Source: Nitrososphaera viennensis EN76
GTDB lineage: Archaea > Thermoproteota > Nitrososphaeria > Nitrososphaerales > Nitrososphaeraceae
Length of the DNA: 32,000 nucleotides
Assembly: GCF_000698785.1 (NCBI RefSeq)
Contig: NZ_CP007536.1
Location: forward strand, 90,001 to 122,000
Reading direction: 5' to 3'
Every line of letters starts with the position of its first letter. The first letter of the stretch is position 1. The position numbers and the translations under genes are program-made. The notes under the pieces are model-generated. The model saw only the letters and a program-made list of their open reading frames with translations, was not told the DNA's origin and ran no database searches. Below are positions 15,285 through 32,000 of this stretch, piece after piece.

Positions 15285-15295
15285 GGCGAGAAAAG

Positions 15296-15877: not shown

Positions 15878-15881
15878 AGGT

Positions 15882-16241
15882 ATGAGCGAGCCAAAGAAGG
15901 AGCTGAAAGACACAGAGCCCTGGACATCGGTAGTACTGGCAACAAAGGCCCTGACAAACCCGCAGGGCAACGAGATATTCACCCTGACTGAGCTGAACGA
16001 AAGCGAGATCAGATACGGTGTTCAGGCGTTAATTCTGGCGGACGCGTTCAAGACGGACCTTTTGACAAATGTGGTAGTCAACCTCGCAGTACTGAAAAGA
16101 AGCCGCGACAGAAAGGGAGAGTCCAGCGTCATCAAGCTTGTAAGGAACGCAAGTATGAAGATGATGCAGAATGTTCAGATGAGCAGGTTCAAGCGGGTCA
16201 TGTCAAACAGGGACGATTTCACCGACTATGACAAGGATTGA
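15882..16241 (+). CDS. Hypothetical soluble protein
   Basis: The ORF is 119 aa. It starts 5 nt after the upstream stop and overlaps the next gene by 14 nt, which suggests translational coupling. Confidence 0.6.
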   Translation: MSEPKKELKDTEPWTSVVLATKALTNPQGNEIFTLTELNESEIRYGVQALILADAFKTDLLTNVVVNLAVLKRSRDRKGESSVIKLVRNASMKMMQNVQMSRFKRVMSNRDDFTDYDKD

Positions 16242-16884: not shown

Positions 16885-16890
16885 CGTTGT

Positions 16891-16915
16891 AGGCTGTTTT
16901 TTGTTATTACAGCCT
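16891..16915. terminator. Hairpin plus T-tract between convergent genes (possible bidirectional terminator)
   Basis: AGGCTGT (16891-16897) and ACAGCCT (16909-16915) are separated by the loop TTTTTGTTATT. The hairpin sits between the stop at 16882-16884 (+) and the stop at 16907-16909 (-). Confidence 0.45.
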
Positions 16916-18937: not shown

Positions 18938-18966
18938 TGCCTTTCAGTGTCATATAATCACGTACA

Positions 18967-18978
18967 TTTATATAAATA
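18967..18978 (-). promoter_or_regulatory. Archaeal TATA-box-like element for the 16907-18937 gene
   Basis: The minus strand reads TATTTATATAAA about 30-40 nt upstream of ATG 18937. No Shine-Dalgarno site is present, which is consistent with a short or leaderless 5' end. Confidence 0.5.
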
Positions 18979-19059
18979 TGTGCTTGGATGACACTGAAAC
19001 TACTAAAGCCGGAACGAGTGGACCGACAGCATTCGCTCCGAACATAGAAATGAATTGAT

Positions 19060-20400: not shown

Positions 20401-20506
20401 TTTTCTATGGACTTAAGTTTTCAAAGTCGATGTATATAACACTGTGTATCGCTTCAACATGCACCGTGCTAAAGTCTTATTCTGAACTGTTCTTGCATTA
20501 TTATTC

Positions 20507-20722
20507 ATGGCTACAAAACCAAACAAGCAAACCAAGCGGGCAGCCATGATGGGATTTTTGGCAGCACTTGGAGCGATTGCAGCCTACCTGATGCCGACGC
20601 CGGCGTATGCCCAGACTACGGGAACGATGGACATGACGCCGCTGGTGTCGGTGATAGTTGCAATCATCCCGGTGTTCATCATGATAGCCTTGCTTGACAA
20701 GCTGATGGGGAAGTTCCGGTGA
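20507..20722 (+). CDS. 71-aa hydrophobic protein: signal-peptide-like helix (AYA|Q) plus one TM helix and a basic C-terminus
   Basis: 'MATKPNKQTKRAAMMGFLAALGAIAAYLMPTPAYAQTTGTMDMTPLVSVIVAIIPVFIMIALLDKLMGKFR'. It is the first gene of a co-directional secretome cassette. Confidence 0.6.
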   Translation: MATKPNKQTKRAAMMGFLAALGAIAAYLMPTPAYAQTTGTMDMTPLVSVIVAIIPVFIMIALLDKLMGKFR

Positions 20723-20728
20723 CAGACT

Positions 20729-21409
20729 ATGAACCGAGACAGCATAATGACAGCAGCATTTGTGGTGCTTGTCCTCCTGACAGCCACATCGCAAGTTGCA
20801 TATGCATTGCCAAGCCCAATACAGTTCCAGCGCAGCATCCCCTTCTCCGTGTTCAACACTACGTCGGCAACGGTCTACACGGCAGACAAGCCTATCTCGC
20901 CGCCCTTTGAGATAGATATCGTGAACCAGCTGACCTACAACTCGACAGGGACTAAAGCGGCGGGAGTAAAGTTCCAAGACGCGACTACGGGTTCCATGAA
21001 TGCGCTGGAGATAAAGACGTACAACAACAAGGCAATCGACATACTGTGGACCGACAAGACCACCGGCTCAACTACAAAGATAGGCGGGATGGCAGGTGAA
21101 GAGCAGCAGTCATTTCCAAAGGAGATTATAATCGAGAACCAAGGCTCGTCTCTCAGCATAAAGCTTGCAGACGGCACAGTCATCATCGACAGCTTTGTGC
21201 TGCCAAGCAACTTCAAGATACTGGCAGTAAGTGCCTTTGGAAATGAAGCTAGCGTTGCGTCTGACGGCTTTATCACTGTCTACGTAGGAGGATTAAGCCC
21301 GACAAAGATGGTCAGCGTCAGCGTGAACGTGATGGTGCCGCTGCTAACCGCAATAGTGACAATAGGAATAGTTTTCACCCTCTTCAGCAAACTAAAGAAC
21401 AAGATATGA
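20729..21409 (+). CDS. Secreted protein with a C-terminal TM anchor
   Basis: N-terminal signal 'MTAAFVVLVLLTATSQVAYALP'. C-terminal 'VMVPLLTAIVTIGIVFTLFSKLKNKI'. The stop overlaps the next start (ATGA at 21406-21409). Confidence 0.7.
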   Translation: MNRDSIMTAAFVVLVLLTATSQVAYALPSPIQFQRSIPFSVFNTTSATVYTADKPISPPFEIDIVNQLTYNSTGTKAAGVKFQDATTGSMNALEIKTYNNKAIDILWTDKTTGSTTKIGGMAGEEQQSFPKEIIIENQGSSLSIKLADGTVIIDSFVLPSNFKILAVSAFGNEASVASDGFITVYVGGLSPTKMVSVSVNVMVPLLTAIVTIGIVFTLFSKLKNKI

Positions 21410-22317
21410 TGGCAGCGCACCACCACTCCTCTTTTTTGTTAATCGCATTGGTCGCAATTGTGATTGCAGCTGTAGCAGGTCTAACTGACTCTGCCACCGG
21501 CGCAAACCCTGTTTTCAATTCTACCCGTGCTTACGATTACATTGCCAGCAACTACAATTCCACCTACGGCTTGGTGAGAGAAAATGAGAATATTGACAGG
21601 TACTGGCTGTGGACTGATAACCTGCTTGCAAGTCACGTCTTGAAGGAATATGATTATGCAAAGTCAGCAAACATGACTGCCACAATCAGGCACTACAACG
21701 AGCTTTATGACTTGGATTTCAGACATCCTGTAGGTTCACTGCTGGACCAGGTAGCCTACTTTAATTCTGTCACGGACAAGAGCGTGACAGGAAATGTATG
21801 GATCTCAGATTCTGATGGCTCTGTCGAGCTTGAATGTAGCGACTATGGAGACATTGCCTTTTACAAATCGATTTACTACTACAGGGCAGGTATGACGGAT
21901 AAAGCAAAGTCCTGTTACGAGATGGGTGCTGCAATGTTTGACGGCATCGGGATAAGGGACAAGGCGTTTGAGCCTGATGGCCAGAGGTACAGCACCTACA
22001 AGATGGCTCTCTGGCAGATAGCCAGCAACATGACTGGCTTTGGAGAAGCAAAGGAGGCCATGACAATCATTTCGTACATGCAAGACTCCACAACCGGCGG
22101 GGTGTATACACACTATCGCGCAAATATACTGCCTGACAGCCAGACCAATGTTGAAACTACTTCGCTTGCAATACTGGCAGACAAAGGAATGTCTTTTCCT
22201 CCGACTTCAAAGCAGACTGACCCTACAACAACAAGTGCACCACCCATTGAATTGTTGGTGGGAGTGTTCGTTGCAGCAGGACTGGCCGTGATCTTGGTAA
22301 AACGGTTTTGGCGTTAA
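21406..22317 (+). CDS. Membrane-anchored extracellular protein, probably alpha-helical repeat
   Basis: N-terminal TM/signal 'SFLLIALVAIVIAAVAGL'. C-terminal TM 'LLVGVFVAAGLAVILVKRFWR'. Several N-x-S/T sequons are present. 'RYWLWTDNLLASHVL' and 'YKMALWQIA' look like helical repeats, but the fold is not established. Confidence 0.7.
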   Translation: MMAAHHHSSFLLIALVAIVIAAVAGLTDSATGANPVFNSTRAYDYIASNYNSTYGLVRENENIDRYWLWTDNLLASHVLKEYDYAKSANMTATIRHYNELYDLDFRHPVGSLLDQVAYFNSVTDKSVTGNVWISDSDGSVELECSDYGDIAFYKSIYYYRAGMTDKAKSCYEMGAAMFDGIGIRDKAFEPDGQRYSTYKMALWQIASNMTGFGEAKEAMTIISYMQDSTTGGVYTHYRANILPDSQTNVETTSLAILADKGMSFPPTSKQTDPTTTSAPPIELLVGVFVAAGLAVILVKRFWR

Positions 22318-22367
22318 AAATGAACGGTTATCAAATGTAATATTGAACTGTTACCAACTAGGTCTGT

Positions 22368-23879
22368 ATGCGTGAAAACGCATACAACGCAAAACCAAAA
22401 GTCGCACTAGCCTTCGCGGCTATTGCGCTGGTTCTGTCAGCCTCACTTTTTGTACCTGTACAACAGGCGGAGGCTGCCAAGCCAACACACAGCGACATCC
22501 AGACGGCGCTGAACCTGGCAAACGGCTACATCAACTCCCTGTACAAGGACGCGTCACCTGATGAAGTGGGATCTAGCACCCATGCGGTAATGGCAGAGTA
22601 CCCGTCCATACCTATCCGCGTCGTTCAGTCTGACGGTCGCGTGATAAGGGCGGGCGAGGACGTGGACATCAAGGTTGGCTGGAAAACAAACTACATCTCT
22701 GACCTAACCGAAGTCTCGAGCGACACTATCAAATACAGACTACGGTTCCGCGCTCTTGACATAGGTGGTGCTGCTGTAGACAAAGCCCCGATGCTTGAGA
22801 TAACCGTCGATTATGTCTATGGAGCAAACAATAACGTCAAGGTAGACATCAAAAACTATCTCTGGGAGACCACCGCGAACATCTCTTGGGCAGACATCTA
22901 TCTCGGTAGCACCTACATAGGCCGCGCAACCCCGTCCAACGTTGGAACCACATGGACATACACCTCAAGCGTGAATCACGGCAACGATGTCTTCTTCAGG
23001 TCGTTCCGTTACATCGAGAGGCACGGCACACAACTAGGTCGCGAATACTACAATGCAATAGGACAGACAAGCAAGGGCACAGAGTTAGCGAGCAGGCTGA
23101 CGGCTGAAGGCTATACTCTGGGCAAAGACATCTACTCTCCAATGTTTGGCAGTGGAACCTCGCAGTCAAACAACTTCCTGTATGAATCAGGGTCCAGCGG
23201 AGTATACCGGGACTGCTATACCGAGCCTGCTATGAGGAACAGGTCGTACCAGTACCATAGCAAGGTCTGCAATGGCGTCGACGCGTACATCATCTACAGC
23301 AGGTCAAGCGACTGGCTCGTTCCTACGCTGTGGGCTATCCACCTGCTTAACAAGGGCGTAGGCGCGGACGTTCCGGTATACGATGGCTACAACACATGGT
23401 CCCCGCGTCAAGTGGCTAGATTCGCGGAGAGCAAGTGGATCGCAGACATCGGCATCCAGTCGCCGGCAAGCAGCAGCCATGCAAGCGCAGTCAGGACAGC
23501 CGCGTTCTTGGTTCTTGAAACCAAGTTGGGCTACGGGTCCGTGAACGACGCGACAAGCAGGACATATGCAGACAAGGCCGCAAGTGCACTGCTGAACCCG
23601 CAGGTCAAGGCTAACGGCAACGTCATTCGCGAGAACGAAAACGGCTCGCAGACCACGCTGATAAGGCCGGTGCATGAGGGCGGATTCTATACCGCATGGA
23701 ACGGCTTTAACTACGTGGCAAAGAAGTCAGTCCTGCAAAACATAGCAGATGCCTTCAACCAGTCCGACGAGACCATAGACATCAAGCCGTCAAATGCGGA
23801 ATCGACTATCACTATAGCGCAGGCCCTCCGCGTGTTTGACTGCTACAACTATGGGTACAACTGCACAAACGTTCCATAG
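22368..23879 (+). CDS. Large secreted protein of unknown function
   Basis: Signal peptide 'KVALAFAAIALVLSASLFVPVQQAEAAKP'. The ORF is 503 aa and I recognise no motifs in it. Confidence 0.8.
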   Translation: MRENAYNAKPKVALAFAAIALVLSASLFVPVQQAEAAKPTHSDIQTALNLANGYINSLYKDASPDEVGSSTHAVMAEYPSIPIRVVQSDGRVIRAGEDVDIKVGWKTNYISDLTEVSSDTIKYRLRFRALDIGGAAVDKAPMLEITVDYVYGANNNVKVDIKNYLWETTANISWADIYLGSTYIGRATPSNVGTTWTYTSSVNHGNDVFFRSFRYIERHGTQLGREYYNAIGQTSKGTELASRLTAEGYTLGKDIYSPMFGSGTSQSNNFLYESGSSGVYRDCYTEPAMRNRSYQYHSKVCNGVDAYIIYSRSSDWLVPTLWAIHLLNKGVGADVPVYDGYNTWSPRQVARFAESKWIADIGIQSPASSSHASAVRTAAFLVLETKLGYGSVNDATSRTYADKAASALLNPQVKANGNVIRENENGSQTTLIRPVHEGGFYTAWNGFNYVAKKSVLQNIADAFNQSDETIDIKPSNAESTITIAQALRVFDCYNYGYNCTNVP

Positions 23880-23910
23880 GGAAGGCTTTTTACCTTCCTT
23901 TTCCTTTTTT
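23880..23910 (+). terminator. Hairpin followed by an oligo-T tract, immediately after the 503-aa gene
   Basis: GGAAGG (23880-23885) and CCTTCC (23893-23898) are separated by the loop CTTTTTA, followed by TTTTCCTTTTTT (23899-23910). Oligo-T tracts are the known archaeal termination signal. Confidence 0.6.
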
Positions 23911-24025
23911 AATAATCGTGCGAGCATCTTTCAAGGCCATCATTGCCGGCATAGGCATTCTTGTTGCCTTTGGTATGTTCTACTGGAACGTGCTGATCGC
24001 AGGCGCGGCTCCGCCGTAAAGCCTG

Positions 24026-24403
24026 TCAAGCTGCAATCTTGGGCTTCTTTATCTCGCCGGCAAGCATCAGCTTCTTGACTTCATCTATGCTGAGGGCAAA
24101 GCCCACGTGTATGCACTCGTCGCTCTCGCAGCTCAGGCACTGCAGCACGCCATTTTTGATCTCCACTTCGATTATCCTCTGCTTCTTGCTATCAAAGATT
24201 GCGATCTTGTTGTCGTACAGCCCGAACTTTGAAAGGCGGGGCATCTTCTTTGCCCACTCTTTGTGAAGCTGTATCAGGTATTCCAGGAACACATTTAGCC
24301 CGACGTCCATCTTTGACGACGTGGAAAGCTTCTGCCTCTCCTGCATTATCTCTTCAAAGACTTTCTCGCTTACTGTTAATGACTTCTGTCCTGTTCGTGG
24401 CAT
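24026..24403 (-). CDS. RHH-like N-terminus plus SWIM-like zinc knuckle protein
   Basis: N-terminal 'KSLTVSEKVFEEIMQERQKL...GLNVFLEYLIQLH' follows the RHH pattern. 'LQCLSCESDECIHVGFA' fits C-x2-C-x4-C-x-H (nt 24107-24139). TTTAAATA on the minus strand lies 26-33 nt upstream of the ATG. Confidence 0.7.
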   Translation of the reverse strand: MPRTGQKSLTVSEKVFEEIMQERQKLSTSSKMDVGLNVFLEYLIQLHKEWAKKMPRLSKFGLYDNKIAIFDSKKQRIIEVEIKNGVLQCLSCESDECIHVGFALSIDEVKKLMLAGEIKKPKIAA

Positions 24404-24570
24404 CCACTTAACTATGAACAGTGCACAATATTTAAATTGAACGGTTACCTTTCTAGTGAATATTGTTCTATTTTTGCTCGTTTTGGTAACTAATAGTAAC
24501 CGTGCACATACGTGTTAGGACACCGTGTATTTATATAGCTGGGCACCATTAACAGTATTGGAGATGCACT
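24404..24570. promoter_or_regulatory. Divergent promoter region of the integrase operon and the 24026-24403 gene, with a repeated GTAACCGT motif
   Basis: TTTATATA (24530-24537) lies 34 nt upstream of GTG 24571. The minus-strand TATA is at 24429-24436. The motif occurs as ACGGTTAC at 24441-24448 (inverted), GGTAAC at 24485-24490 and GTAACCGTG at 24496-24504, and again at 24595-24603 inside the small ORF. Confidence 0.5.
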
Positions 24571-24744
24571 GTGCCAAGATATAACCAGAAGTCGGTAACC
24601 GTGTCGATCAGCCTGAAGAACAAGATAAAGGAGTACATGAAGGACTATGGCTTTCACAGCCAGCCGCAGGCAATTGAAGATGCACTGACTCTGGCAAGAG
24701 GGGTTAGGGCTGTCGTGACGAAAAAGGAGGCCGCGGTTGAATGA
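24571..24744 (+). CDS. 57-aa ribbon-helix-helix protein (absent from the ORF track), translationally coupled to the integrase; possible excisionase or regulator
   Basis: My translation from GTG 24571 is 'VPRYNQKSVTVSISLKNKIKEYMKDYGFHSQPQAIEDALTLARGVRAVVTKKEAAVE*', which follows the RHH pattern. The stop TGA at 24742-24744 overlaps the integrase ATG 24741 (ATGA). Confidence 0.6.
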   Translation: MPRYNQKSVTVSISLKNKIKEYMKDYGFHSQPQAIEDALTLARGVRAVVTKKEAAVE

Positions 24745-26150
24745 TGGTACAGTCTGATGCAGTATCTGAAAAGGCCGGCAACATTCAGAAGTTCGACCAT
24801 CCGAGGATTGAAAGAAAGAAGAGCCGCCTTCGCGTCAAAGGCATCAAAGTCAGCGACAAGGACAAGATCAGAGAGGCAATAATGATCAGCGTCCAGAAGG
24901 GCAACTACACCACGCGCGAGATCGGGCTTGACATAGGCAAGGACTACAGCACAGTTTCAAGGTATCTCTCAGAGATGGAAGGAGATACAAGGTGGGGAAT
25001 AAAGCGCGATGCAAACGGCAGCATCGTAATGTCGCTGCAGCAACAGCTAGCCCACGAATACGCCAAGCTGCAGAACGAGAAATTCTCGCAGCTTCCGTCC
25101 ATACAGAAGTGGATAACGTACTTAAAGTCAGCTGGCATACCCGCAAGGCGTATCCAGTATATGTTAAACATCATTCATGGGATCGCGGATCAGCTGCTGG
25201 TGATGCCGGAGACCTTAGTCAGCTACGGAGTACCCATCGACACTGCAAAGAGGAAAGAGATAGCCATAGAGTACTGGCAGAATTTTCTTGCATGGTTCAA
25301 TACCGCGTACCCGCAGATGCAAAAGACAAACACCATCAACGCTTATCGAAGCTTTCTGTCTTCCCACAGCGTTAACTTTGCTCACGGCGAAGGCAAGAGA
25401 TACGGACTCTCAACAACGCCGGAGAGGCTTGGGGAGTACAAGGAAATCATGCTCACGCCTGAGCAGATTGCCATCATAAACAAGCGTCTTGAGAATGAGG
25501 GCGACTGGGAATCCTGGTCGTTTATGAACATCGATCTACACAGTGGAGCTAGAGCATTTGCTATGGCGTCCATGAGCTGGGATAGAATAGTGATGTCTCC
25601 TGCCTTCAGGGTAGAGCAGTTTGAACCCAAGATCAAAAAAGGTGCATGGTACCTTACAAAGGAAGGCAAGTGGTGGGTCAAGTACCCGACTGAGGAGTGC
25701 AGAGCGGTAGTCGAGACCGCTTATGACAGGTTACCAAAAAGGGATTTTGTGTTCTTTGATGATTCGGGAAGTGACAAGGCTAACTGTCTGCAGGTTAGCT
25801 ATTTCATGCACACGATGGCAGTCAAGTTCAAGAAGATATTCTTGGATCTTAACAAAACAAGCTGGCTCAACGAAAAGACTAGGATCTATGCGCTAGGCGA
25901 TGGGTTGTACTTTAACGGTCATCCATTACACCTGTTCAGGCATACGATGGCTCAATATTACCTGGCGGCTACAAACTGGTCTCTTGCTTACGTGGCAAGC
26001 TTAGGCGGATGGGAAAACACGGAAGTACTGAACAAATGCTATGGCGGAATACCCGAGCATATCAAGGTGCAAGTAGCAAAGTCTATACACGTCAGGTTTG
26101 ATAGCATACGTCTCAATGCCTCAATAGCCAACATTGACAGACATTTTTAG
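24741..26150 (+). CDS. Tyrosine recombinase/integrase (intact) with an N-terminal HTH region
   Basis: C-terminal catalytic motifs are present: 'HSGARAFAMASMSWDRI' (box I Arg), 'HLFRHTMAQYYL' (H-x-x-R-H) and 'LGGWENTEVLNKCYGG' (W...Y nucleophile region). N-terminal HTH: 'TTREIGLDIGKDYSTVSRYLSEME'. Confidence 0.9.
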   Translation: MMVQSDAVSEKAGNIQKFDHPRIERKKSRLRVKGIKVSDKDKIREAIMISVQKGNYTTREIGLDIGKDYSTVSRYLSEMEGDTRWGIKRDANGSIVMSLQQQLAHEYAKLQNEKFSQLPSIQKWITYLKSAGIPARRIQYMLNIIHGIADQLLVMPETLVSYGVPIDTAKRKEIAIEYWQNFLAWFNTAYPQMQKTNTINAYRSFLSSHSVNFAHGEGKRYGLSTTPERLGEYKEIMLTPEQIAIINKRLENEGDWESWSFMNIDLHSGARAFAMASMSWDRIVMSPAFRVEQFEPKIKKGAWYLTKEGKWWVKYPTEECRAVVETAYDRLPKRDFVFFDDSGSDKANCLQVSYFMHTMAVKFKKIFLDLNKTSWLNEKTRIYALGDGLYFNGHPLHLFRHTMAQYYLAATNWSLAYVASLGGWENTEVLNKCYGGIPEHIKVQVAKSIHVRFDSIRLNASIANIDRHF

Positions 26151-26202
26151 CTTGTAAGATATTGCACTTGTTCTAGCCATGATATCAACAGACCTGTGAG
26201 GT

Positions 26203-26343
26203 CTATGACTTACGATAATATTGTATCAGGTGCTTGATAACGTCATCCATGGATCTTCGTTTGCCGTCTTTTGCCGCGAGTTCTGCCCCGATTTTTACAA
26301 CAGCTTTCTTCGTTTCCTCACTTATTCGCATGGACGTTACCAT
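26203..26343 (-). CDS. 46-aa ribbon-helix-helix protein (absent from the ORF track)
   Basis: My reverse-strand translation is 'MVTSMRISEETKKAVVKIGAELAAKDGKRRSMDDVIKHLIQYYRKS*', which follows the RHH pattern. The gene is convergent with the integrase and divergent from the methyltransferase across the AT-rich inverted-repeat region. Confidence 0.55.
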   Translation of the reverse strand: MVTSMRISEETKKAVVKIGAELAAKDGKRRSMDDVIKHLIQYYRKS

Positions 26344-26384
26344 CGGCGATCTATGAAAATAGAATAGATGTTCTGTCTCTTAAA

Positions 26385-26452
26385 CATATATGACATATAC
26401 ATAATATGCACAATGTACATATACTACATATGCATGATATATGTCATATATG
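26385..26452. repeat. AT-rich alternating purine-pyrimidine inverted-repeat structure
   Basis: A perfect 15-bp inverted repeat pairs CATATATGACATATA (26385-26399) with TATATGTCATATATG (26438-26452). The 38-nt spacer contains the palindrome ATGTACAT (26413-26420) and the direct repeat ATATGCA (26404-26410, 26428-26434). Confidence 0.85.
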
Positions 26453-26599
26453 AAAGTGCAGGGTTTTCATGCGGAAGGAAGCTATATTGATTGTGGTACA
26501 GCTCGGGTATATCTACATCCCACCGCCGTCGAGCGCGCTTATTCGGCGCGCCGGGGTTCGACCTTCTACATAAACGATATATTGAACCTGCGGGGTGTT

Positions 26600-26611
26600 G
26601 CAACTAGTTGC
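26600..26611. promoter_or_regulatory. Perfect 12-bp palindrome GCAACTAGTTGC spanning the in-frame TAG and the TTG start of the methyltransferase (possible operator)
   Basis: The palindrome was read directly. It is flanked by GGGG (26592-26595) and CCCC (26611-14). An A/T-rich 'CGATATATTG' lies about 30 nt upstream. Confidence 0.35.
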
Positions 26612-27756
26612 CCCTGACTGCAATCTCACTGTTTTCTGGGGCCATGGGCCTCGATCTTGGATTTGAAAAGGCGGGATTCGATATTAGGGTCGCTTGCGAA
26701 TTAAGGGAAGAGGTCTGCAAAACCATATCCTTGAACAGGCCTGCCCTGCAGGTACTGCCGGGAGATATAGCAAAACACAGTACAACTGATATCCTGAAAA
26801 GAGCCCGCCTTAGAGTGGGCGAAGCCACCGCCGTGATTGGCGGTCCAGCATGTCAACCTTTTTCTACCGCTGGCGGCAGGCAGTCGTTTAATGAAAAGAG
26901 GGGAGAGGTACTCTTTGAATATATCAGGATAGTTAACGAGGCCAAGCCACAGTTCTTTATCTTCGAAAATGTTAAGGGCCTGACCAGTGCCGCACTTAAG
27001 CATATTTCATTCTACGAGCGCGTCAAGAAGAAAGAACATGAGTTACATGAAGAATACCGACTAGGTACTGCGTATCAGTATATGATGGAAAAGCTCAAAG
27101 GAACCGGCTATAAGATACACTCAAAGATACTCAACGCTGCAGACTATGGTGCCCCTCAGAAAAGATTACGGCTCATAATTATAGGATCCCGCGATGGCGT
27201 CGACGTCGATTTCCCAGAGCCTACACACGCTGCACCTGATTCAGAAGATGTTGTAAGTGGCAGAAAACAGCGATGGGTCACATTACGAGAGGCACTAAAA
27301 GGTTTGAAAGAAAATGAGCAAGAGTATGTGAAATTCCCGTCATGGGGCAGGTATATGAAGTATATCAAACCTGGCGGCGACTGGCGTGATCTGCCCGCGA
27401 GGATCCAAAGGAGAGCAATGAAAGAATCATATTTTTCACAAGGAGGTAGAACGGGATACTTTAGACGACTCAGTTGGGACAAGCCTAGCCCGACACTGGT
27501 GACATTGCCGATATTCAAGAGCACGTGCCTGGCACACCCCAAATCCAATAGGCCACTGAGTGTCCAAGAATATTCCCGATTACAGGGTTTCCCGGATGAA
27601 TGGAAATTCTATGGCACAGTAAAGCAACGCTATAGGATGATAGGCGAAGCTGTGCCGGTCCCGCTTGCCTATGCGGTAGCACTAGCGGTCAGGAATAAAT
27701 CAACTGAATTGTTGGGAATTGAGGAAGGAAATAGACAAAGAAAAAGAAATAGTTAA
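26608..27756 (+). CDS. DNA (cytosine-5)-methyltransferase, M.HaeIII-like family
   Basis: Motif I 'ISLFSGAMGLDLGF'. Motif IV 'GGPACQPFSTAG' (catalytic PCQ). Motif VI 'ENVKGL'. Motif VIII 'QKRLRLIIIG'. Motif IX 'RRLSWDKPSPTL'. Motif X 'GEAVPVPLAYAVA'. The TTG start is forced by an in-frame TAG at 26605-26607. Confidence 0.95.
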   Translation: MPLTAISLFSGAMGLDLGFEKAGFDIRVACELREEVCKTISLNRPALQVLPGDIAKHSTTDILKRARLRVGEATAVIGGPACQPFSTAGGRQSFNEKRGEVLFEYIRIVNEAKPQFFIFENVKGLTSAALKHISFYERVKKKEHELHEEYRLGTAYQYMMEKLKGTGYKIHSKILNAADYGAPQKRLRLIIIGSRDGVDVDFPEPTHAAPDSEDVVSGRKQRWVTLREALKGLKENEQEYVKFPSWGRYMKYIKPGGDWRDLPARIQRRAMKESYFSQGGRTGYFRRLSWDKPSPTLVTLPIFKSTCLAHPKSNRPLSVQEYSRLQGFPDEWKFYGTVKQRYRMIGEAVPVPLAYAVALAVRNKSTELLGIEEGNRQRKRNS

Positions 27757-28390
27757 CACAGTTCTGCATTGGAGCAGAAGAAATATCCGGGATTTTCCTT
27801 GGCGCAATGGTTTCTCTCCGTACAGGGTACTTATCGCGGAGCTTCTTCTAAGGCGCACGACGGCTCAAGCAGTACAGCGCGTTTACGATGAATTTATAGA
27901 GACCTATCCCGACCTCCAGCATCTTTCGAAGGCATCTATCGGGGAACTTGAAGACCGTCTTAAAACACTAGGATACCATAGACTAAGGGCAATATTGATC
28001 AGGGAAGTCGTCTCTGAAATGCTATCCAAATACAAGGGGATCCCAGACACACTAGAGGAATTATTATCGATCAAGCATATTGGCCTATACACAGCAGCCG
28101 CTATCATATCACTAGGCTACAATAAGCCATTACCTATGGTCGACACTAATGTACTACGGATATTGGGAAGAGTATATGGTCGGTCGATGACACAACAACA
28201 GGCCTTTGAGCTTTTGAAAGGAAAACTACCAGTTGACTCCAGACGGTTTAATTTATCTCTGCTCGACTTTGGAGCGCTTGTATGCAGGTATAAGAATCCG
28301 TTGTGTCATGTTTGTCCACTAAATGACTCATGTACATATTACCAAATCAAGGTAAAAAATACGAAGTATAGGGAGCAGGGGCCTAGCTAG
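27719..28390 (+). CDS. HhH-GPD / Nth-MutY-family DNA glycosylase with a 4Fe-4S cluster loop (Mig-type T:G mismatch glycosylase candidate)
   Basis: 'FPWRNGFSPYRVLIAELLLRRTTAQAV' is a MutY/Nth-like N-terminus. HhH 'LLSIKHIGLYTAAAII'. Catalytic-Asp region 'VDTNVLRILGRV'. 'CRYKNPLCHVCPLNDSC' fits C-x6-C-x2-C-x5-C. The gene overlaps the MTase 3' end by 38 nt and has a TTG start. Confidence 0.85.
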   Translation: MRKEIDKEKEIVNTVLHWSRRNIRDFPWRNGFSPYRVLIAELLLRRTTAQAVQRVYDEFIETYPDLQHLSKASIGELEDRLKTLGYHRLRAILIREVVSEMLSKYKGIPDTLEELLSIKHIGLYTAAAIISLGYNKPLPMVDTNVLRILGRVYGRSMTQQQAFELLKGKLPVDSRRFNLSLLDFGALVCRYKNPLCHVCPLNDSCTYYQIKVKNTKYREQGPS

Positions 28391-28416
28391 CAAACATATT
28401 TGCAGAAAGACAATTA

Positions 28417-29772
28417 TCATTTTGGAGTCCCTGATTGTTTAAGGGCCTTTTCAACAATAAACACTCTTTGAGGATCTGCTTTTGCAATCCCTGTCTTCAC
28501 TTCATTTAACCATCGTCTTAGAGATTCGGTTCGTTCCGTGGTGTTGATGATGCTAGGCACAAACGCTCTTTCGCTGTTGTAATATTTTATGACACAGTCC
28601 ATAAGAAACTCAAGATCTGAAGGAGTAATTAGTGGCCAGTACTGGATCACAACCTTTTCCATGTCGGAACTGTTCAGGCCTGTTTTATGCTGCAACATTT
28701 GTAAGAGCTCCGATAGCTTCGAAGGGTCTGACAATACATCAAGAGCGACATAGATTGTACCTCCCTCAGTATGACTCCTCTTCCTTTCTACAAAGTATAG
28801 TTTCGCGGAACCTTTGCTGCCGCTGATTACTACGTGATCCTGCTGCTCGTTTGTATGGCCCCCCATCTCCTTAAGCATCAGCAGCAAGGAATGCAAACGA
28901 CTGTTAAACACATCATCTTTTTTCAGTTCTCCTATAGTCACTACGGGTGTTCCATGTAACTTGTCCTTATCGCCTGGGAGTTTGACTACTTCAGAAGACT
29001 CTACTAGCTCCGTCCTTATCCATGATAGAACCTCCTTGACAAGTTCAAAGTCATCTATTTCAAATGCTAGTGTATCTTTTATGTGGCCCTCGTCTGGCTT
29101 AAACCGGACGAGCGTGTTGAAAATAAGGTCAGGTATGTTCTTGAGGTAAGTCCTCTGTATTATCGCTACACCCTTGTCCTTGAAAGGTATCCAATAAGCC
29201 TGCGACGACTCAAACATCCTACCTATGATATCATATGCCGCTACCTTACGAACTCTCATGACGCTAGGCTTATTGTCGCGAGAAGTGAAGACTACAAAGT
29301 AGCTGTCTCCCCGTTTATTGCTACATTTCAACACTGACCGGTTTTTTGTATTAGCGCCGATCCCTCCTTCCCTTTTGTAGGTATAGAGGTGCGCCCATAC
29401 CCTCTTCTCTGGATCGAACTGAAACCACGAGCCGTAGAAAGGGAGGTTTATGAAAACAGGGTGGCCCACAGTCCTAATACTTTGGCCATATCGCGATTTT
29501 AGAATCACTACGTGATCCTCGAGCGTGTGGATTGTAACACCGATATCCCTAAGCTCTCGCACGATACTTTTACGCTGCGCCGACACCACCGCAAAACCCC
29601 AGAACCTACCGATCGCTCCGAACTGGACATCAGATCTCAGCAGTATCCTTTCTATTAGTTGCTTTTTGAGTGATGGCATATCTTTGACTTGAACGAAACA
29701 ATTACGAATCATCTCACAGAGGTCAGGCTTACCATGGGCAAAACAATCTTCACAGCTCGCAAGTGGATCCAA
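28417..29772 (-). CDS. Uncharacterised 451-aa protein: N-terminal Cys cluster, internal duplication; no recognised catalytic motif
   Basis: 'CEDCFAHGKPDLCEMIRNC' fits C-x2-C-x8-C-x5-C (nt 29698-29754). The motif '(D/E)(I/M)G-x7-(E/Q)DHVVI-x2-S-x2-G' occurs twice, with DHVVI at nt 29503-29517 and 28825-28839 and a 13-nt identical core ACTACGTGATCCT. The TTG start lies 1 nt after the upstream gene's stop. Confidence 0.75.
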   Translation of the reverse strand: MDPLASCEDCFAHGKPDLCEMIRNCFVQVKDMPSLKKQLIERILLRSDVQFGAIGRFWGFAVVSAQRKSIVRELRDIGVTIHTLEDHVVILKSRYGQSIRTVGHPVFINLPFYGSWFQFDPEKRVWAHLYTYKREGGIGANTKNRSVLKCSNKRGDSYFVVFTSRDNKPSVMRVRKVAAYDIIGRMFESSQAYWIPFKDKGVAIIQRTYLKNIPDLIFNTLVRFKPDEGHIKDTLAFEIDDFELVKEVLSWIRTELVESSEVVKLPGDKDKLHGTPVVTIGELKKDDVFNSRLHSLLLMLKEMGGHTNEQQDHVVISGSKGSAKLYFVERKRSHTEGGTIYVALDVLSDPSKLSELLQMLQHKTGLNSSDMEKVVIQYWPLITPSDLEFLMDCVIKYYNSERAFVPSIINTTERTESLRRWLNEVKTGIAKADPQRVFIVEKALKQSGTPK

Positions 29773-29773
29773 G

Positions 29774-30742
29774 CTATGTCACCGCCAACTTCCTAGAAAG
29801 CTCTTCGAAGTTTTGCAATATCTGGATTAGCGCCGCCTCTTCTTGCTGCTCTTGCGACAGAACCTCTCCAATCCTCTTACGCATACCAAATGTCACCCGA
29901 GCATACAGATGTCCGAGTGGTGTTAGCCTAAAGTTATGATCACTGCTTACTACACGTTTGAGCAGTCCTTCTCTTTCCATATCAAAACTTACGTTCTTAA
30001 GTGACTTCTTGATACCTTCGAATGATCTGTTGGTGCCTCTCTGGGGAGGCATATACTCGGACATGCCAAGTGACAAAACCTTGGTTGTAATCCCCGATAC
30101 ATTAAGCGCGGGATGCTGGTTATCCGGGTAAACGGAAGGATGTATGAAGAAATGGCACATTAGCAGTACAAAGGTTTCAGGGCTCAGTAGGTTTAATGTT
30201 GAATTAAAGGCAGGCAACTCTCTTATTGTCGGTAACATAGCGTCACCAATCAGCCTGTTGTATGCCATGAAAATCCTTATCGTGTCGACCCCCAGGGCTC
30301 CCAAGATGTTAGCAACATAAAACGGCAGCGGATCCGGGCTTTGCCCGTTTATAACGACTAGGCGCACCTCTGTTTTCTTTATGTGCTGTTGTAGGCATTC
30401 ATTCAGACCCTTGATCCATCGCTCTTTGGCCAGTTCAAAACCCTTGTCCGACGGCTCATCTCCCATGTAGTGGGCTACAACATCAGAATGTGTCTCAAAA
30501 GTCGTCCGGCCGGCTAGCATAGGCACGAGGTTGTCATCCGGGTAGGCAGCCATTACTGGTAGGATGTCTCCCCTCAAGTGCTCAGGGACGAGCGGTACTA
30601 TCTTTTGAAGCTCTGTCTCATCTGGCACAAGTTCCGGTTCACTAATGCGTCTTTCATGTATGAACAGGGCGGAGTCGTTGCTATACTGTGACAGTGCATA
30701 GGAGAGAAGACGTTTGTCGGTGGACCGCCATAGTAATAGCAT
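29774..30742 (-). CDS. Uncharacterised 322-aa protein: N-terminal alpha/beta-like domain plus C-terminal winged-HTH-like region
   Basis: The C-terminal 'LSPETFVLLMCHFF...GITTKVLSLGM...SFEGIKKSLKNVSFDMEREGLLKRVVSSDHNFRLTPLGHLYA' follows a wHTH-like pattern. 'VRLVVINGQSPDPLPFYVANILGALGVDTIRIFMAY' looks like a Rossmann-like strand-helix-strand. The gene is tightly coupled to the downstream 451-aa gene. Confidence 0.75.
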   Translation of the reverse strand: MLLLWRSTDKRLLSYALSQYSNDSALFIHERRISEPELVPDETELQKIVPLVPEHLRGDILPVMAAYPDDNLVPMLAGRTTFETHSDVVAHYMGDEPSDKGFELAKERWIKGLNECLQQHIKKTEVRLVVINGQSPDPLPFYVANILGALGVDTIRIFMAYNRLIGDAMLPTIRELPAFNSTLNLLSPETFVLLMCHFFIHPSVYPDNQHPALNVSGITTKVLSLGMSEYMPPQRGTNRSFEGIKKSLKNVSFDMEREGLLKRVVSSDHNFRLTPLGHLYARVTFGMRKRIGEVLSQEQQEEAALIQILQNFEELSRKLAVT

Positions 30743-30854
30743 AACCTCTTGGTCTTGTTCTTTATATTAAACTTTTCATAAAATGACGTATTTAGTAATG
30801 ACTAACTTCGTCATTTAGAAACAGTTCTTAAGCATCGATCCCGCTTTACGCCCT
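30743..30854. promoter_or_regulatory. Divergent control region with TATA-like element and an 8-bp perfect inverted repeat
   Basis: TTTATATT lies at 30761-30768, 20-27 nt from ATG 30742 on the minus strand. AAATGACG (30781-30788) and CGTCATTT (30809-30816) are separated by 20 nt that contain a third ATGAC copy. Confidence 0.5.
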
Positions 30855-32000
30855 ATGACACAAACCGCTGTCCAAAAGGCAGCAACTGAAACCATATCAC
30901 ACCAAGTCAAGAGCAACGCTTCTCCTGAGATGAAGGTAGTTGATGAGATTACATCTGCAGTACTAACAGCTTCGATGTTTGACCACGGAAGAGATATCAG
31001 GTATGCAGGTATCACTGATGTCTTGTTCCCAGAGGGCTATACATTTGTCCGGCGGAAGCTGGGAAGGAATATCACCGTACCATCAGTGCATACAACAGAG
31101 TTCATCGTAGACGGGGACGACGGCGAGCTCGTGGTCGAGTTCCGTTTTATCCAGCCACGAATCCGCGGGCTTAGGCAGAAGTACCCGGACGGGAGGTGGA
31201 TCCGTTTATCCTCAAGACCATTTGTGCTTGATGGTAACACCTACCAAGCTGGGAACGAAGAACCATCGGAGAAAATGATAACGACTGGTCCACTGAAGTT
31301 AAAAGACCTGTTGTCAAAGAAATACAAGAAAGTATTCGCCGCCAAGAAGGAAAGGGTAGAAGAGCTCATCAAGGACAGCAAGGATAAGGCACAGGCAATG
31401 TTTGTCCGTGAGGTAGCCGAGTCAAAAATCGAGGTAAATGTTGCCTGTAGGCGGCTAGGCGACAAAGAGGGCAGGTACAAAGTCTCTATCAGGATCCAAA
31501 ATGTGATTCCAATAAAGCTCTCAGGGGTCAGGCCATATAATGCCGAGGAAGTGATGAAGAAGTCGCTTTTTGGCGCGTATACCTTAGTCAAATCTTCTAA
31601 GTGTACTCTGCTAGACACCGGCAATGAGGAGGCGATGAGAGAGTGTGCTAACCTGAGCACCTACCCTGTCAAATCCAGTAAGAGTTCCGACACACTTTTT
31701 TCTTCGCCGGTGATTGTCTACGACTATCCATGGTTCGAGCCCATCAACATGACAACCTCTCTGAAGGAGATAGTTGCCGACGATAAGACACTCCTATCCC
31801 ACATGCACCTGCTCGATAAGAACGAGGTCTCCGTACTGAAGAAGTCCGGCAAACTCGCGAAAATCCTAAAGGTATTCAGAGCACTTGCCGAAAGTACAGA
31901 GGGTAAGGTAGATCGTCTCTACCAATTCCAGTGGGACGCTATACAGAAATTCATCAAAAGCCTCCTAAAAGACGACCCCGGAGTATTGATTATCAGGGCA
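30855..32000 (+). CDS. 3'-partial ORF (382 codons in window, absent from the ORF track): unknown ~350-aa N-terminal region followed by the beginning of an SF2 (DExH/DEAD-type) helicase-like core
   Basis: I translated codon by codon from ATG 30855 (the first start after stop 30816-30818) to nt 32000 and found no stop. The last residues, 'DRLYQFQWDAIQKFIKSLLKDDPGVLIIRA', fit the Q-motif/beta-strand that precedes Walker A (PTGSGKT) in SF2 helicases. Walker A itself would lie beyond the window, so the helicase call is tentative. Confidence 0.6.
   Translation, partial: MTQTAVQKAATETISHQVKSNASPEMKVVDEITSAVLTASMFDHGRDIRYAGITDVLFPEGYTFVRRKLGRNITVPSVHTTEFIVDGDDGELVVEFRFIQPRIRGLRQKYPDGRWIRLSSRPFVLDGNTYQAGNEEPSEKMITTGPLKLKDLLSKKYKKVFAAKKERVEELIKDSKDKAQAMFVREVAESKIEVNVACRRLGDKEGRYKVSIRIQNVIPIKLSGVRPYNAEEVMKKSLFGAYTLVKSSKCTLLDTGNEEAMRECANLSTYPVKSSKSSDTLFSSPVIVYDYPWFEPINMTTSLKEIVADDKTLLSHMHLLDKNEVSVLKKSGKLAKILKVFRALAESTEGKVDRLYQFQWDAIQKFIKSLLKDDPGVLIIRA

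What the first reader, a model, noticed from the sequence alone, without database searches (positions are those of the whole stretch)
26608..32000. Candidate undescribed defence-type locus: m5C MTase + Mig glycosylase + two novel genes + N-terminally extended helicase-like gene
This locus sits directly beside the putative att site of an integrated element, which is a typical defence-island position. It combines a self-marking enzyme (C5-MTase) with a dedicated repair enzyme for the damage that marking causes. It also has a coupled pair of unknown proteins, one wHTH-bearing and one Cys-cluster/duplicated. Divergently transcribed from a shared palindrome-containing promoter is a large ORF that appears to begin an SF2 helicase core. 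The MTase-plus-helicase logic recalls DISARM class 2, BREX and type I/III R-M systems. None of the signature partners of those systems (DUF1998, PLD, PglZ, HsdS, Mod-type N6 MTase) is visible in the window. The unknown pair matches nothing I can name. The locus continues beyond the window, so the full gene set is unknown.
Basis: inference. Interest (0 to 1): 0.8.

Follow-up and report, generated by a model that had tools for sequence, protein, structure and literature searches.

The report
Archaeal DISARM system with unknown partners
The locus is not an undescribed defence system but a DISARM anti-virus system of the soil archaeon Nitrososphaera viennensis whose hallmark genes lie just past the window end; the modest novelty is that two uncharacterised genes and a T:G-mismatch repair gene travel with it instead of the usual DrmE gene.

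Summary
The C5-methyltransferase matches PADLOC DrmMII (E 1e-212). The truncated helicase-like ORF matches the first 382 of 1018 positions of a DrmA model (E 1e-270). In 100%-identical contigs, which protein look-ups assign to Nitrososphaera viennensis EN76, DrmA is followed by DrmB (DUF1998) and DrmC (PLD). The locus is therefore a class-2-type DISARM system, and the scores suggest it is already in PADLOC's training set.

Some things are less ordinary. No DrmE is detectable. In its place is a divergent, translationally coupled pair, X (322 aa) and Y (451 aa). The pair lies beside this DrmA clade in 9 distinct loci and co-diverges with DrmA. One further locus has Y without X.
- X has a weak C-terminal wHTH signal. 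Clade-specific palindromes lie in the DrmA–X intergenic region and are absent from the locus that lacks X. X is therefore probably the operon regulator.
- Y has a confident AF2 model (pLDDT 84) but no sequence or Foldseek relative. It also occurs alone in 29 Nitrosotalea/Nitrosopumilales genomes.
- The glycosylase is Mig.MthI-like (PDB 1KEA, 2.4e-37). One relative has Vsr in its place.

Verdict: a known system in a new variant. Interest is modest.

The parts
26608..27756 (+). DrmMII: the C5-cytosine DNA methyltransferase (382 aa, TTG start) that marks self DNA.
   Evidence: PADLOC DrmMII model PDLC02650, E 1.3e-212, 704 bits. Pfam DNA_methylase 5.7e-63. NCBIfam dcm 7e-61. Motifs FSGAMGLDLGF, GGPACQPFS, ENV and QKRLR are present. 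Deposited as AIC14305.1.
27719..28390 (+). Mig-type T:G mismatch thymine-DNA glycosylase (223 aa). It overlaps the MTase gene by 38 nt, so the two are probably translationally coupled.
   Evidence: Best PDB match is 1KEA (Mig.MthI, 'possible G-T mismatches repair enzyme'), E 2.4e-37 over residues 7-209, ahead of MutY at 1e-31. Pfam HhH-GPD 2.3e-13 plus the EndIII 4Fe-4S loop. The Cx6Cx2Cx5C motif CRYKNPLCHVCPLNDSC and the VDTNV motif are read from the translation. There is no MutY C-terminal domain. PADLOC 'type II nicking endonuclease' PDLC03398, 5e-37. The MTase-glycosylase overlap recurs in L011 and L043.
28417..29772 (-). Y: a 451-aa uncharacterised multi-domain protein, second gene of the X-Y operon. 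It accompanies this DrmA clade in every locus examined.
   Evidence: No Pfam, PADLOC or NCBIfam family. The AF2 model has pLDDT 83.8. Foldseek finds nothing at E<0.08 in PDB or BFVD. Homologues lie next to DrmA in L009, L011, L041, L042, L043, L046, L047 and L049 and on the P0003 contig. Invariant residues include H82, T83, H87, R124, D241, K271 and D386.
29774..30742 (-). X: a 322-aa uncharacterised protein, first gene of the X-Y operon. It is the probable wHTH regulator of the divergent promoters.
   Evidence: No family hit at threshold. The C-terminal region gives weak PadR-type wHTH matches, and one member gives Csa3 at 0.028. In all 9 distinct loci that hold an X homologue, it lies between DrmA (divergent) and Y. 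The AF2 model is unusable (pLDDT 44).
30743..30854 (.). Divergent intergenic control region. It holds the palindrome AAATGACG (30781-30788) / CGTCATTT (30809-30816), a third half-site GTCATT between the arms, and an AT-rich TATA-like box, TTTAATATAAAG when read in the direction of X (about 30761-30772).
   Evidence: Sequence; inverted-repeat scans. Related loci carry palindromes at the same place with clade-specific half-sites: TGAC/GTCA in L001, L009 and L041; GACAAT/ATTGTCCGGAC in L011, L043 and L047. None is found in L046, which lacks X.
30855..32000 (+). DrmA: the first 382 of 1018 residues, comprising the N-terminal extension up to the residue before Walker A. The ORF is cut by the window end.
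   Evidence: PADLOC DrmA model PDLC02573, E 1.1e-270, model positions 1-382 of 1018. The full protein in L001 scores 2468 bits. It carries Walker A APTNSGKS, DEIH and two Cys4 zinc motifs in RecA1. Downstream genes in window-equivalent coordinates: DrmA ends about 33911, DrmB about 33911-35665, DrmC about 35674-36534.

Best explanation
The window holds the left two-thirds of a class-2-type DISARM anti-virus system of Nitrososphaera viennensis EN76. The system sits on a ~24-kb low-GC island.

**Established for DISARM in the literature, inferred here**
- DrmMII methylates cytosines of the host genome.
- The DrmA helicase and the DUF1998 protein DrmB form a complex. It loads on incoming DNA and is held back by the methyl mark.
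- DrmC is the associated PLD nuclease.

**Local additions**
1. A Mig.MthI-type glycosylase is translationally coupled to DrmMII. It removes the T of T:G mismatches left by 5-methylcytosine deamination and so pays the mutational cost of the mark.
2. A divergent two-gene operon, X-Y, stands where bacterial class 2 systems have DrmE.
   - X most likely binds the palindromic operator between the two promoters through a C-terminal wHTH. It would set the balance of X-Y and DrmABC expression, in the manner of an R-M controller protein.
   - Y is a co-evolving partner of DrmAB of unknown biochemistry. I take it to be the functional stand-in for DrmE.
For: **Shown: the DISARM core**
- PADLOC calls all four core proteins at near-self scores.
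- The gene order DrmA-DrmB-DrmC lies immediately beyond the window in contigs 100% identical over 12,227 nt.
- The split between helicase and DUF1998 protein, the PLD gene after DrmB, and two zinc motifs in RecA1 match the DISARM hallmarks listed in PMC12458937.
- NCBI annotates DrmB as a DUF1998 protein and DrmC as PLD-like.

**Shown: the repair gene**
- 1KEA is the best PDB match for the glycosylase.
- HhH-GPD genes overlap the MTase gene in L011 and L043, and Vsr takes that place in L009.

**Shown: X and Y belong to the system**
- Nine distinct X-bearing loci all show DrmA divergent from X, followed by Y. All three loci sampled from the DrmA side have Y, and two have X.
- Pairwise identities of X and Y track those of DrmA:

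| Locus pair | DrmA | X | Y |
|---|---|---|---|
| L009 / L049 | 76% | 68% | 58% |
| L011 / L047 | 80% | 72% | 65% |
| L011 / L043 | 64% | 39% | 42% |

**Inferred: X is the regulator**
- Weak wHTH matches.
- Operator-like palindromes change with the X clade and are missing where X is missing.

**Mechanism.** The DrmAB mechanism is taken from PMC9142583.
Against: - DrmE, which PADLOC requires for type II DISARM (PMC9252829), is not detectable in X, Y or 21 of their relatives, even at E<=10.
- Nothing shows what Y does.
- Y has solitary homologues in 29 Nitrosotalea/Nitrosopumilales genomes with no X or DrmA within 10 kb. It can therefore function, or at least persist, outside DISARM.
- The HTH of X rests on sub-threshold matches, and its structure model failed.
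- DrmMII has Ala-Cys instead of the canonical Pro-Cys in motif IV, so its activity is not guaranteed.
- No functional data exist for any archaeal DISARM in the papers I could search.
- Ofir et al. 2018 could not be read.
Confidence: 0.8

Rival explanations
1. One reading: a previously undescribed defence system built from an m5C MTase, Mig, two novel genes and a helicase, distinct from DISARM, BREX and type I/III R-M.
For: X and Y match no Pfam, PADLOC or NCBIfam family. DrmE is absent. Within the window alone, no DUF1998 or PLD gene is visible.
Against: DrmA, DrmB, DrmC and DrmMII are all called by PADLOC with E<=1e-205. DUF1998 and PLD genes follow directly after the window end. The very high bits per residue (about 2.4) suggest these proteins were in the set from which PADLOC built its DISARM models.
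Confidence: 0.03
2. X and Y together are a split, highly diverged DrmE. Their combined length is 773 aa, and from memory DrmE of Bacillus paralicheniformis is about 780 aa. On this reading the locus is a canonical class 2 DISARM.
For: The combined length, the position next to drmA, the tight coupling (1-nt gap in N. viennensis; 17-nt overlap in L011 and L047), and the fact that something takes DrmE's place in every locus of the clade.
Against: No DrmE model hit for any of 23 family members at E<=10. X-Y is transcribed divergently from drmA. One locus (L046) has Y without X. Y exists alone in Nitrosotalea. I could not obtain a DrmE sequence or structure for a profile or fold comparison.
Confidence: 0.12
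3. X-Y is a separate two-gene cassette, such as a regulator plus an unrelated mobile-element or housekeeping gene. It merely sits between two halves of a defence island and has no role in DISARM.
For: Solitary Y genes occur in conserved chromosomal neighbourhoods of Nitrosotalea. There is no biochemical link to DrmAB.
Against: The same DrmA-divergent-X-Y arrangement is seen in 9 distinct loci spanning DrmA identities down to about 30-45%. Divergence is congruent across DrmA, X and Y, whereas the MTase was exchanged in two lineages. The X family was found nowhere else in an exhaustive HMMER search of 1.84 billion representatives; only 10 hits were returned.
Confidence: 0.1
4. The MTase-Mig pair is an independent orphan or type II R-M remnant (as M.MthTI-Mig on pFV1) that happens to abut DISARM, and is not the system's own DrmMII.
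For: The N. viennensis MTase belongs to a different lineage from the MTases of six related loci (about 30% versus 55-81% among them). Some relatives have REase-like genes near the MTase. Motif IV is atypical.
Against: A C5 MTase is present in every locus with enough sequence (L001, L009, L011, L041, L043, L046, L047, L049). The best PADLOC model is DrmMII at 704 bits, versus 325 bits for generic type II MTase models. No REase gene accompanies it in N. viennensis.
Confidence: 0.1

Closest known systems
Class 2 (type II) DISARM, as defined by Ofir et al. 2018 and PADLOC (drmE-drmA-drmB-drmC-drmMII; Bacillus paralicheniformis prototype)
   Same: SF2/YprA-like helicase DrmA; a separately encoded DUF1998 protein DrmB; PLD nuclease DrmC directly after DrmB; C5-cytosine MTase DrmMII. 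No SNF2 DrmD or N6 DrmMI is present.
   Different: No detectable DrmE. A divergent X-Y operon sits in that neighbourhood. A T:G repair gene is coupled to the MTase. The host is archaeal (Nitrososphaerales). The ~350-aa N-terminal region of DrmA has no assigned domain.
Class 1 DISARM (Serratia DrmAB cryo-EM, PMC9142583)
   Same: The DrmA-DrmB core. This is the only part with a known mechanism: loading on ssDNA with a 5' overhang, and ATPase activity damped by methylation.
   Different: Class 1 has DrmD and the N6 MTase DrmMI, and PMC12458937 describes an EVE-like N-terminal domain in its DrmA. None of these is seen here.
M.MthTI/Mig.MthI of plasmid pFV1 and Dcm/Vsr of E. coli (m5C MTase coupled to T:G mismatch repair)
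   Same: An m5C MTase gene overlaps or abuts a gene for an enzyme that corrects T:G mismatches from 5mC deamination. The glycosylase is the closest sequence relative of Mig.MthI (1KEA). A sister locus uses Vsr instead.
   Different: Here the pair is embedded in a DISARM system rather than a type II R-M or a solitary Dcm.
Controller (C) proteins of type II R-M systems
   Same: A putative HTH protein encoded at the head of an operon, next to a palindromic operator in a promoter region. The operator sequence changes with the protein clade.
   Different: X is 322 aa with a large N-terminal domain of unknown fold. The HTH is only weakly detected. Binding is untested. The promoters are presumably archaeal TATA/BRE type.
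DISARM-like cassette associated with McrBC (mentioned in PMC12458937)
   Same: Related locus L046 has DrmA-DrmB followed by an AAA_5 (McrB-like) 889-aa protein and a 557-aa protein in place of PLD DrmC.
   Different: That is a sister locus, not the N. viennensis one. It keeps Y but lacks X.

Membership tests
DISARM (any class) | SF2/YprA-like helicase DrmA | tested here: met
   PADLOC DrmA model PDLC02573: 1e-270 for the window fragment and 2468 bits for the full protein, plus 9 other DrmA models. Pfam DEAD 2.4e-11 and Helicase_C 4e-9. Walker A and DEIH motifs present.
DISARM (any class) | The OB-CON-DUF1998 protein (DrmB) is encoded by a separate gene directly after the helicase | tested here: met
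   A 584-aa gene overlaps the DrmA stop codon. PADLOC DrmB models PDLC02581 at 1427 bits and PDLC02582 at 7.8e-8. tblastn hits to plasmid genes annotated as DUF1998. NCBI names it 'DUF1998 domain-containing'. Pfam PF09369 is recorded for orthologues, although Pfam gave no hit for the N. viennensis protein itself. A C-terminal Cys cluster is present.
DISARM (any class) | PLD-family nuclease DrmC following DrmB | tested here: met
   A 286-aa gene. PADLOC DrmC model PDLC02600 at 1.4e-205, plus 20 other DrmC models. Pfam PLDc_2 at 2.2e-8. HKD motif HAKIVLAD at residue 213.
DISARM (any class) | Two zinc-binding motifs embedded in RecA1 of DrmA (PMC12458937) | tested here: met
   CPNPAC...CEEC (residues 476-503) and CKKCPNC...CRGC (550-577) lie between Walker A and DEIH. 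The cysteines are invariant in 4 relatives. Sequence evidence only; no structure.
DISARM (any class) | Protects against viruses, with self-protection by the system's methylase | not testable with these tools
   Needs a virus or plasmid challenge and a methylome.
DISARM class 2 / PADLOC type II | C5-cytosine MTase DrmMII, with no DrmD or DrmMI | tested here: met
   DrmMII model PDLC02650 at 1.3e-212. No SNF2 or N6-MTase gene lies between the integrase-like gene and the response regulator.
DISARM class 2 / PADLOC type II | DrmE present (required by the PADLOC type II definition, PMC9252829) | tested here: not met
   No DrmE model hit for X, Y or 21 relatives at E<=10. Fold-level homology to DrmE could not be tested because no DrmE sequence or structure was available.
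Mig.MthI-type T:G thymine-DNA glycosylase (HhH-GPD superfamily) | HhH-GPD fold with a 4Fe-4S cluster loop, no MutY C-terminal domain, and Mig rather than MutY or Nth as the closest relative | tested here: met
   1KEA at 2.4e-37 over the full length, versus MutY at 1e-31 and Nth at 1e-18. Cx6Cx2Cx5C motif present. The protein is only 223 aa. GLYT aligns with the GKYT of Mig in the alignment.
Mig.MthI-type T:G thymine-DNA glycosylase (HhH-GPD superfamily) | Removes T (or U) opposite G | not testable with these tools
   Requires an enzyme assay.
R-M controller (C) protein-like regulators (considered for X) | HTH DNA-binding domain | tested here: inconclusive
   Only sub-threshold matches: PadR-like PDB chains at E 0.35-1.4, all on profile positions 232-281; Pfam PadR at 0.063 in one member; PADLOC Csa3 at 0.028 in one member. 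The AF2 model reached only pLDDT 44.
R-M controller (C) protein-like regulators (considered for X) | Palindromic operator in its own promoter region | tested here: met
   Palindromes lie in 8 of 9 DrmA-X intergenic regions and have clade-specific half-sites. None is found in the X-less locus L046. L049 is unclear.
   No such PADLOC or Pfam hits in the locus. There is only a marginal BrxHI hit (6e-6) to the helicase core of DrmA.

The most novel reading that the evidence does not exclude
X-Y is an unrecognised, obligatory module of a distinct archaeal DISARM subtype, found so far in Nitrososphaera and in unassigned metagenomic contigs.
- Y would be a protein of new fold that replaces DrmE as the partner of DrmAB, for example in target or methylation sensing.
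- X would be a ligand-responsive wHTH switch that controls the divergent promoters.
- The solitary Y genes fixed in Nitrosotalea would then be an exaptation of a defence component, or the host gene from which DISARM recruited Y.
Probability: 0.4. Interest if true: 0.5.

Novelty: new variant of a known kind. Interest (0 to 1): 0.3.

Why it matters
- **For the scan.** This is mainly a corrective. A locus flagged at 0.8 as a possible new defence system is a DISARM system that standard classifiers recognise once about 5 kb of downstream DNA is added.
- **For DISARM biology.** There is a small but concrete gain.
  - The least understood class 2 component, DrmE, is replaced in one clade by a conserved pair that co-evolves with DrmA. 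This gives a comparative handle on what the 'fifth function' of DISARM is.
  - The recurrent recruitment of either Mig or Vsr next to DrmMII shows that the mutational cost of the m5C mark is actively managed inside the system.
- **For archaea.** It documents a complete DISARM-type system in a cultivated ammonia-oxidising archaeon, where methylome and expression experiments are feasible.

Tried and rejected
- **Reading Ofir et al. 2018.** The paper is not held under its DOI or under PMC5739279. The class 2 and DrmE definitions come from PMC9252829, PMC9142583 and memory.
- **Obtaining a DrmE sequence for a profile comparison.** tblastn of DrmB and DrmA against plasmids found only haloarchaeal, Chloroflexota and Streptomyces DISARM-like or ARMADA-like loci with no DrmE candidate. 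I abandoned this route.
- **Fold searches for Y.**
  - Foldseek against PDB and BFVD gave nothing better than E 0.08.
- **Structure of X.** AF2 with 5 sequences gave pLDDT 44, which is unusable.
- **Collection scans.**
  - Metagenome contigs with DrmA patterns found no clade members.
  - Viral contigs with DrmA and Y found none.
  - Alignments A3 and A6 were too diverse to seed a scan.
  - The genome scan with Y returned only solitary Nitrosotalea-type genes, and did not even return N. viennensis.
- **att site.** No convincing direct repeats link the island edges and the integrase-proximal region; only 11-12-nt chance-level matches turned up. There is no tRNA in the window.
- **Bacterial promoter and terminator scan.** Not informative for an archaeon, and counts were at shuffle level.
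- **Literature.** No paper found mentions DISARM in Nitrososphaera or the NVIE_0012xx genes. Krupovic et al. 2019 on thaumarchaeal integrated elements does not mention DISARM.
- **Internal duplication in Y.** Only marginal.

Full report
**1. What is in the window**

| Gene | Coordinates | Strand | Length |
|---|---|---|---|
| C5-MTase | 26608-27756 | + | 382 aa |
| HhH-GPD glycosylase | 27719-28390 | + | 223 aa |
| Y | 28417-29772 | - | 451 aa |
| X | 29774-30742 | - | 322 aa |
| Open-ended ORF | 30855 to beyond 32000 | + | 382 aa within the window |

- The glycosylase gene overlaps the MTase gene by 38 nt. The stop codon of X lies 1 nt from the start of Y.
- The open-ended ORF was read.
- The 112-nt region between X and the last ORF holds an 8-bp inverted repeat, AAATGACG (30781-30788) and CGTCATTT (30809-30816), with a third half-site between the arms.
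- GC content drops from about 0.60 to about 0.45 at about 12.9 kb and stays low to the window end. There is no tRNA in the window.

**2. Identity of the organism and the missing downstream DNA**

- An exact-protein look-up of X returned 17 contigs.
- L001 is 100% identical to the window over 12,227 overlapping bases.
- Protein look-ups assign the genes to Nitrososphaera viennensis EN76. The proteins are AIC14305.1 to AIC14311.1; X is NVIE_001260 and DrmB is NVIE_001280.
- Downstream of the window, the open ORF continues to 1018 aa. It is followed on the same strand by a 584-aa gene that overlaps its stop codon, and then by a 286-aa PLDc_2 gene.
- After these come a 165-aa ORF and a response-regulator gene at host-like GC.
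- The low-GC island therefore spans about 12.95-37.2 kb in composite coordinates. It is flanked by a histidine-kinase gene (11197-12978) on one side and a response-regulator gene on the other.

**3. Classification**

PADLOC-DB models give:

| Protein | Model | Result |
|---|---|---|
| DrmMII | PDLC02650 | E 1.3e-212 |
| DrmA (window fragment) | PDLC02573 | E 1.1e-270, model positions 1-382 of 1018 |
| DrmA (full protein) | PDLC02573 | 2468 bits |
| DrmB | PDLC02581 | 1427 bits |
| DrmC | PDLC02600 | E 1.4e-205 |

- At about 2.4 bits per residue and identical model lengths, these models appear to have been built from this protein or a near-identical one. This is my inference. It implies that the N. 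viennensis locus is already in the DISARM catalogue PADLOC uses.
- Independent hallmarks agree. According to PMC12458937, DISARM is the only YprA branch in which helicase and OB-CON-DUF1998 are consistently separate genes, a PLD nuclease follows DrmB, and two zinc-binding motifs sit in RecA1.
- Here DrmA has Walker A APTNSGKS, DEIH, and two Cys4 motifs between them. DrmB has a C-terminal Cys cluster. DrmC has HAKIVLAD.
- NCBI names DrmB 'DUF1998 domain-containing' and DrmC 'phospholipase D-like'.

**4. The glycosylase**

- The best solved-structure relative is 1KEA, the Methanothermobacter T:G mismatch glycosylase Mig.MthI. The match is E 2.4e-37 over the full length, ahead of MutY (1e-31) and endonuclease III.
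- The protein has the 4Fe-4S loop Cx6Cx2Cx5C and lacks a MutY C-terminal domain.
- In related loci the same overlapping MTase-glycosylase pair recurs in L011 and L043, and the pair is also present in L047. In L009 a Vsr endonuclease takes its place.
- Two unrelated enzymes with the same job, correcting T:G from 5mC deamination, occupy the same slot.

**5. The two unknown genes**

*Family searches.* Neither X nor Y matches any Pfam, PADLOC or NCBIfam family. PADLOC requires DrmE for type II DISARM (PMC9252829). No DrmE model hits X, Y or 21 relatives, even at E<=10.

*Homologues are few.*
- Y returned 15 proteins from 5.8 billion.
- X returned 5 close proteins, plus 7 distant ones from an exhaustive HMMER pass over 1.84 billion representatives.

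*Genomic context is conserved.*
- Nine distinct loci hold an X homologue: N. viennensis, the P0003/P0020 contig, L009, L011, L041, L042, L043, L047/48 and L049/50.
- All nine show the same arrangement: DrmA transcribed divergently, then X, then a Y homologue immediately downstream.
- Sampling from the DrmA side (13 clade members; three contexts read) gave Y in 3 of 3 and X in 2 of 3.
- The exception, L046, keeps Y but lacks X. It replaces PLD DrmC with an AAA_5 protein plus a 557-aa protein.

*X and Y co-diverge with DrmA.* Pairwise identities follow:

| Locus pair | DrmA | X | Y |
|---|---|---|---|
| L009 / L049 | 76% | 68% | 58% |
| L011 / L047 | 80% | 72% | 65% |
| L011 / L043 | 64% | 39% | 42% |

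- The MTase, by contrast, has been exchanged in the N. viennensis and L046 lineages.
- X and Y are therefore integral, faster-evolving members of this DISARM clade, not chance neighbours.

**6. What X and Y may do**

*X*
- The C-terminal part (profile positions about 232-281) repeatedly but weakly matches the recognition helix and wing of PadR-type wHTH proteins (Pfam PadR 0.063). One member touches a Csa3 model.
- The DrmA-X intergenic regions carry palindromes whose half-sites follow the X clades. L001, L009 and L041 have TGAC/GTCA. L011, L043 and L047 have GACAAT/ATTGTCCGGAC, including a perfect 22-bp palindrome in L043. L042 has its own palindrome.
- No palindrome is found in L046, which has no X.
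- I infer that X is the operon's DNA-binding regulator, analogous to an R-M controller protein, with an extra N-terminal domain of unknown role. AF2 failed for X (pLDDT 44).

*Y*
- Y gives a confident model (pLDDT 83.8). It has a conserved N-terminal Cys triad, an invariant HTxxxH motif, a beta-rich middle and a helical C-terminus.
- The claimed internal duplication is marginal.
- I take Y to be the functional stand-in for DrmE. This is inference from position and co-evolution only.

*A complication*
- Y has solitary homologues of 26-36% identity (mostly 31-34%) in 29 Nitrosotalea/Nitrosopumilales genomes. They sit in a conserved chromosomal setting with no X or DrmA within 10 kb, and are fragmented in two genomes.
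- Y's activity is therefore not strictly DISARM-bound.

**7. Mechanism, with status**

- *Established for class 1 DrmAB (PMC9142583).* The complex loads on ssDNA with a 5' overhang, its ATPase is reduced by 5mC, and DrmC is dispensable.
- *Transferred here by homology.* DrmMII marks self DNA. DrmAB acts on unmarked incoming DNA. DrmC is the nuclease.
- *Supported here by comparison.* Mig repairs deamination damage. X regulates the divergent promoters.
- *Unknown.* The biochemistry of Y, the methylation motif, and whether the Ala-Cys variant of motif IV (GGPACQPFS; relatives have NPCQGFS) is fully active.

**8. Other reader claims**

- The 469-aa neighbour at 24741-26150 is only weakly integrase-like (Pfam E 0.0026, below threshold).
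- I found no att repeats.
- 'Defence island' is fair in the sense of a low-GC island. However, PADLOC finds no other defence gene in the 13-24.5 kb part, only wHTH hits in a TFIIB-fusion protein.

**9. Novelty and score**

- The system kind is known, and this very locus appears to be catalogued.
- The variant is apparently undescribed. It lacks DrmE and has a conserved X-Y module and a Mig or Vsr companion. Searches on DISARM with Nitrososphaera or Thaumarchaeota, on the NVIE locus tags, and of the YprA survey PMC12458937 found nothing on it.
- I rate it a new variant of a known kind, with interest 0.3.

Noticed in passing
window 11197-12978 and about 12950-32000 (continuing to about 37.2 kb in L001 coordinates 3500-8742): The ~24-kb low-GC island (GC 0.40-0.50 against about 0.58-0.61 in the host flank) lies between a Cache/HisKA/HATPase histidine-kinase gene and a response-regulator gene. 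It looks as if the island split a two-component gene pair. The integrase-like gene sits in the middle of the island, not at an edge, so the island may consist of two adjacent elements.
   Followed up: partly
window 26608-27756 (residues 78-86 of the MTase): Catalytic motif IV of DrmMII reads GGPACQPFS, with Ala-Cys instead of the nearly universal Pro-Cys. MTases of five related loci (L009, L011, L041, L043 examined) have NPCQGFS. The N. viennensis and L046 MTases are a different lineage (42% identical to each other, about 30% to the rest), although DrmA, X and Y co-diverge.
   Followed up: partly
L012-L040 (Nitrosotalea/Nitrosopumilales genomes), L007, L008: Solitary homologues of Y (26-36% identity, mostly 31-34%, about 440-455 aa) occur in 29 species-representative genomes. 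These include Ca. Nitrosotalea devanaterra and Ca. N. bavarica. The genes sit next to an ABC/MacB transporter cluster, and in L007 next to a Vps4/CdvC gene. No X or DrmA lies within 10 kb. The gene is fragmented in L035 and L038.
   Followed up: partly
L049 311-1492 and L050 239-1420; L046 10557-14901: Sister loci vary the effector side. L049/L050 carry an AspBHI_N + Mrr_cat (m5C-dependent type IV-like) nuclease directly after the C5 MTase. L046 has an AAA_5 889-aa protein plus a 557-aa protein (McrBC-like) in place of the PLD DrmC, and a guanylate-cyclase-domain gene beside Y.
   Followed up: no
window 28417-29772, 29774-30742, 30855 onward: Later public annotations shorten these genes: Y to 420 aa, X to 284 aa and DrmA to 993 aa. 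The longer N-termini are conserved in homologues, including the Cys triad of Y and the MLLLW start of X. The longer EN76 GenBank calls appear to be the correct ones.
   Followed up: yes
window about 26395-26470: An AT-rich tract of imperfect CATATA/TATATG repeats, partly palindromic (CATATATGACATATAC...GTCATATATG), lies between the integrase-like gene and the MTase. It could be a promoter region, an origin-like element or a recombination site.
   Followed up: partly
window 16907-18937 (-): A 676-aa protein combines several wHTH domains (TrmB, MarR and Csa3-like hits) with a C-terminal TFIIB cyclin repeat. TFIIB genes are among the commonest cargo of thaumarchaeal integrated elements (table 1 of PMC6563490).
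   Followed up: no
window 386-10498 (+): A single 3370-aa ORF in the high-GC host part of the window. A 1162-aa ORF on the opposite strand (3943-7431) is probably a shadow ORF. Neither was analysed.
   Followed up: no
window 24026-24403 (-) and 24571-24744 (+): Two small divergent ORFs sit upstream of the integrase-like gene. Their N-termini are similar (MPRTGQKSLTVSEKVFEEI and MPRYNQKSVTVSISLKNKI). The second overlaps the integrase start by 4 nt. They may be paralogous DNA-binding regulators of the element. Not tested.
   Followed up: no
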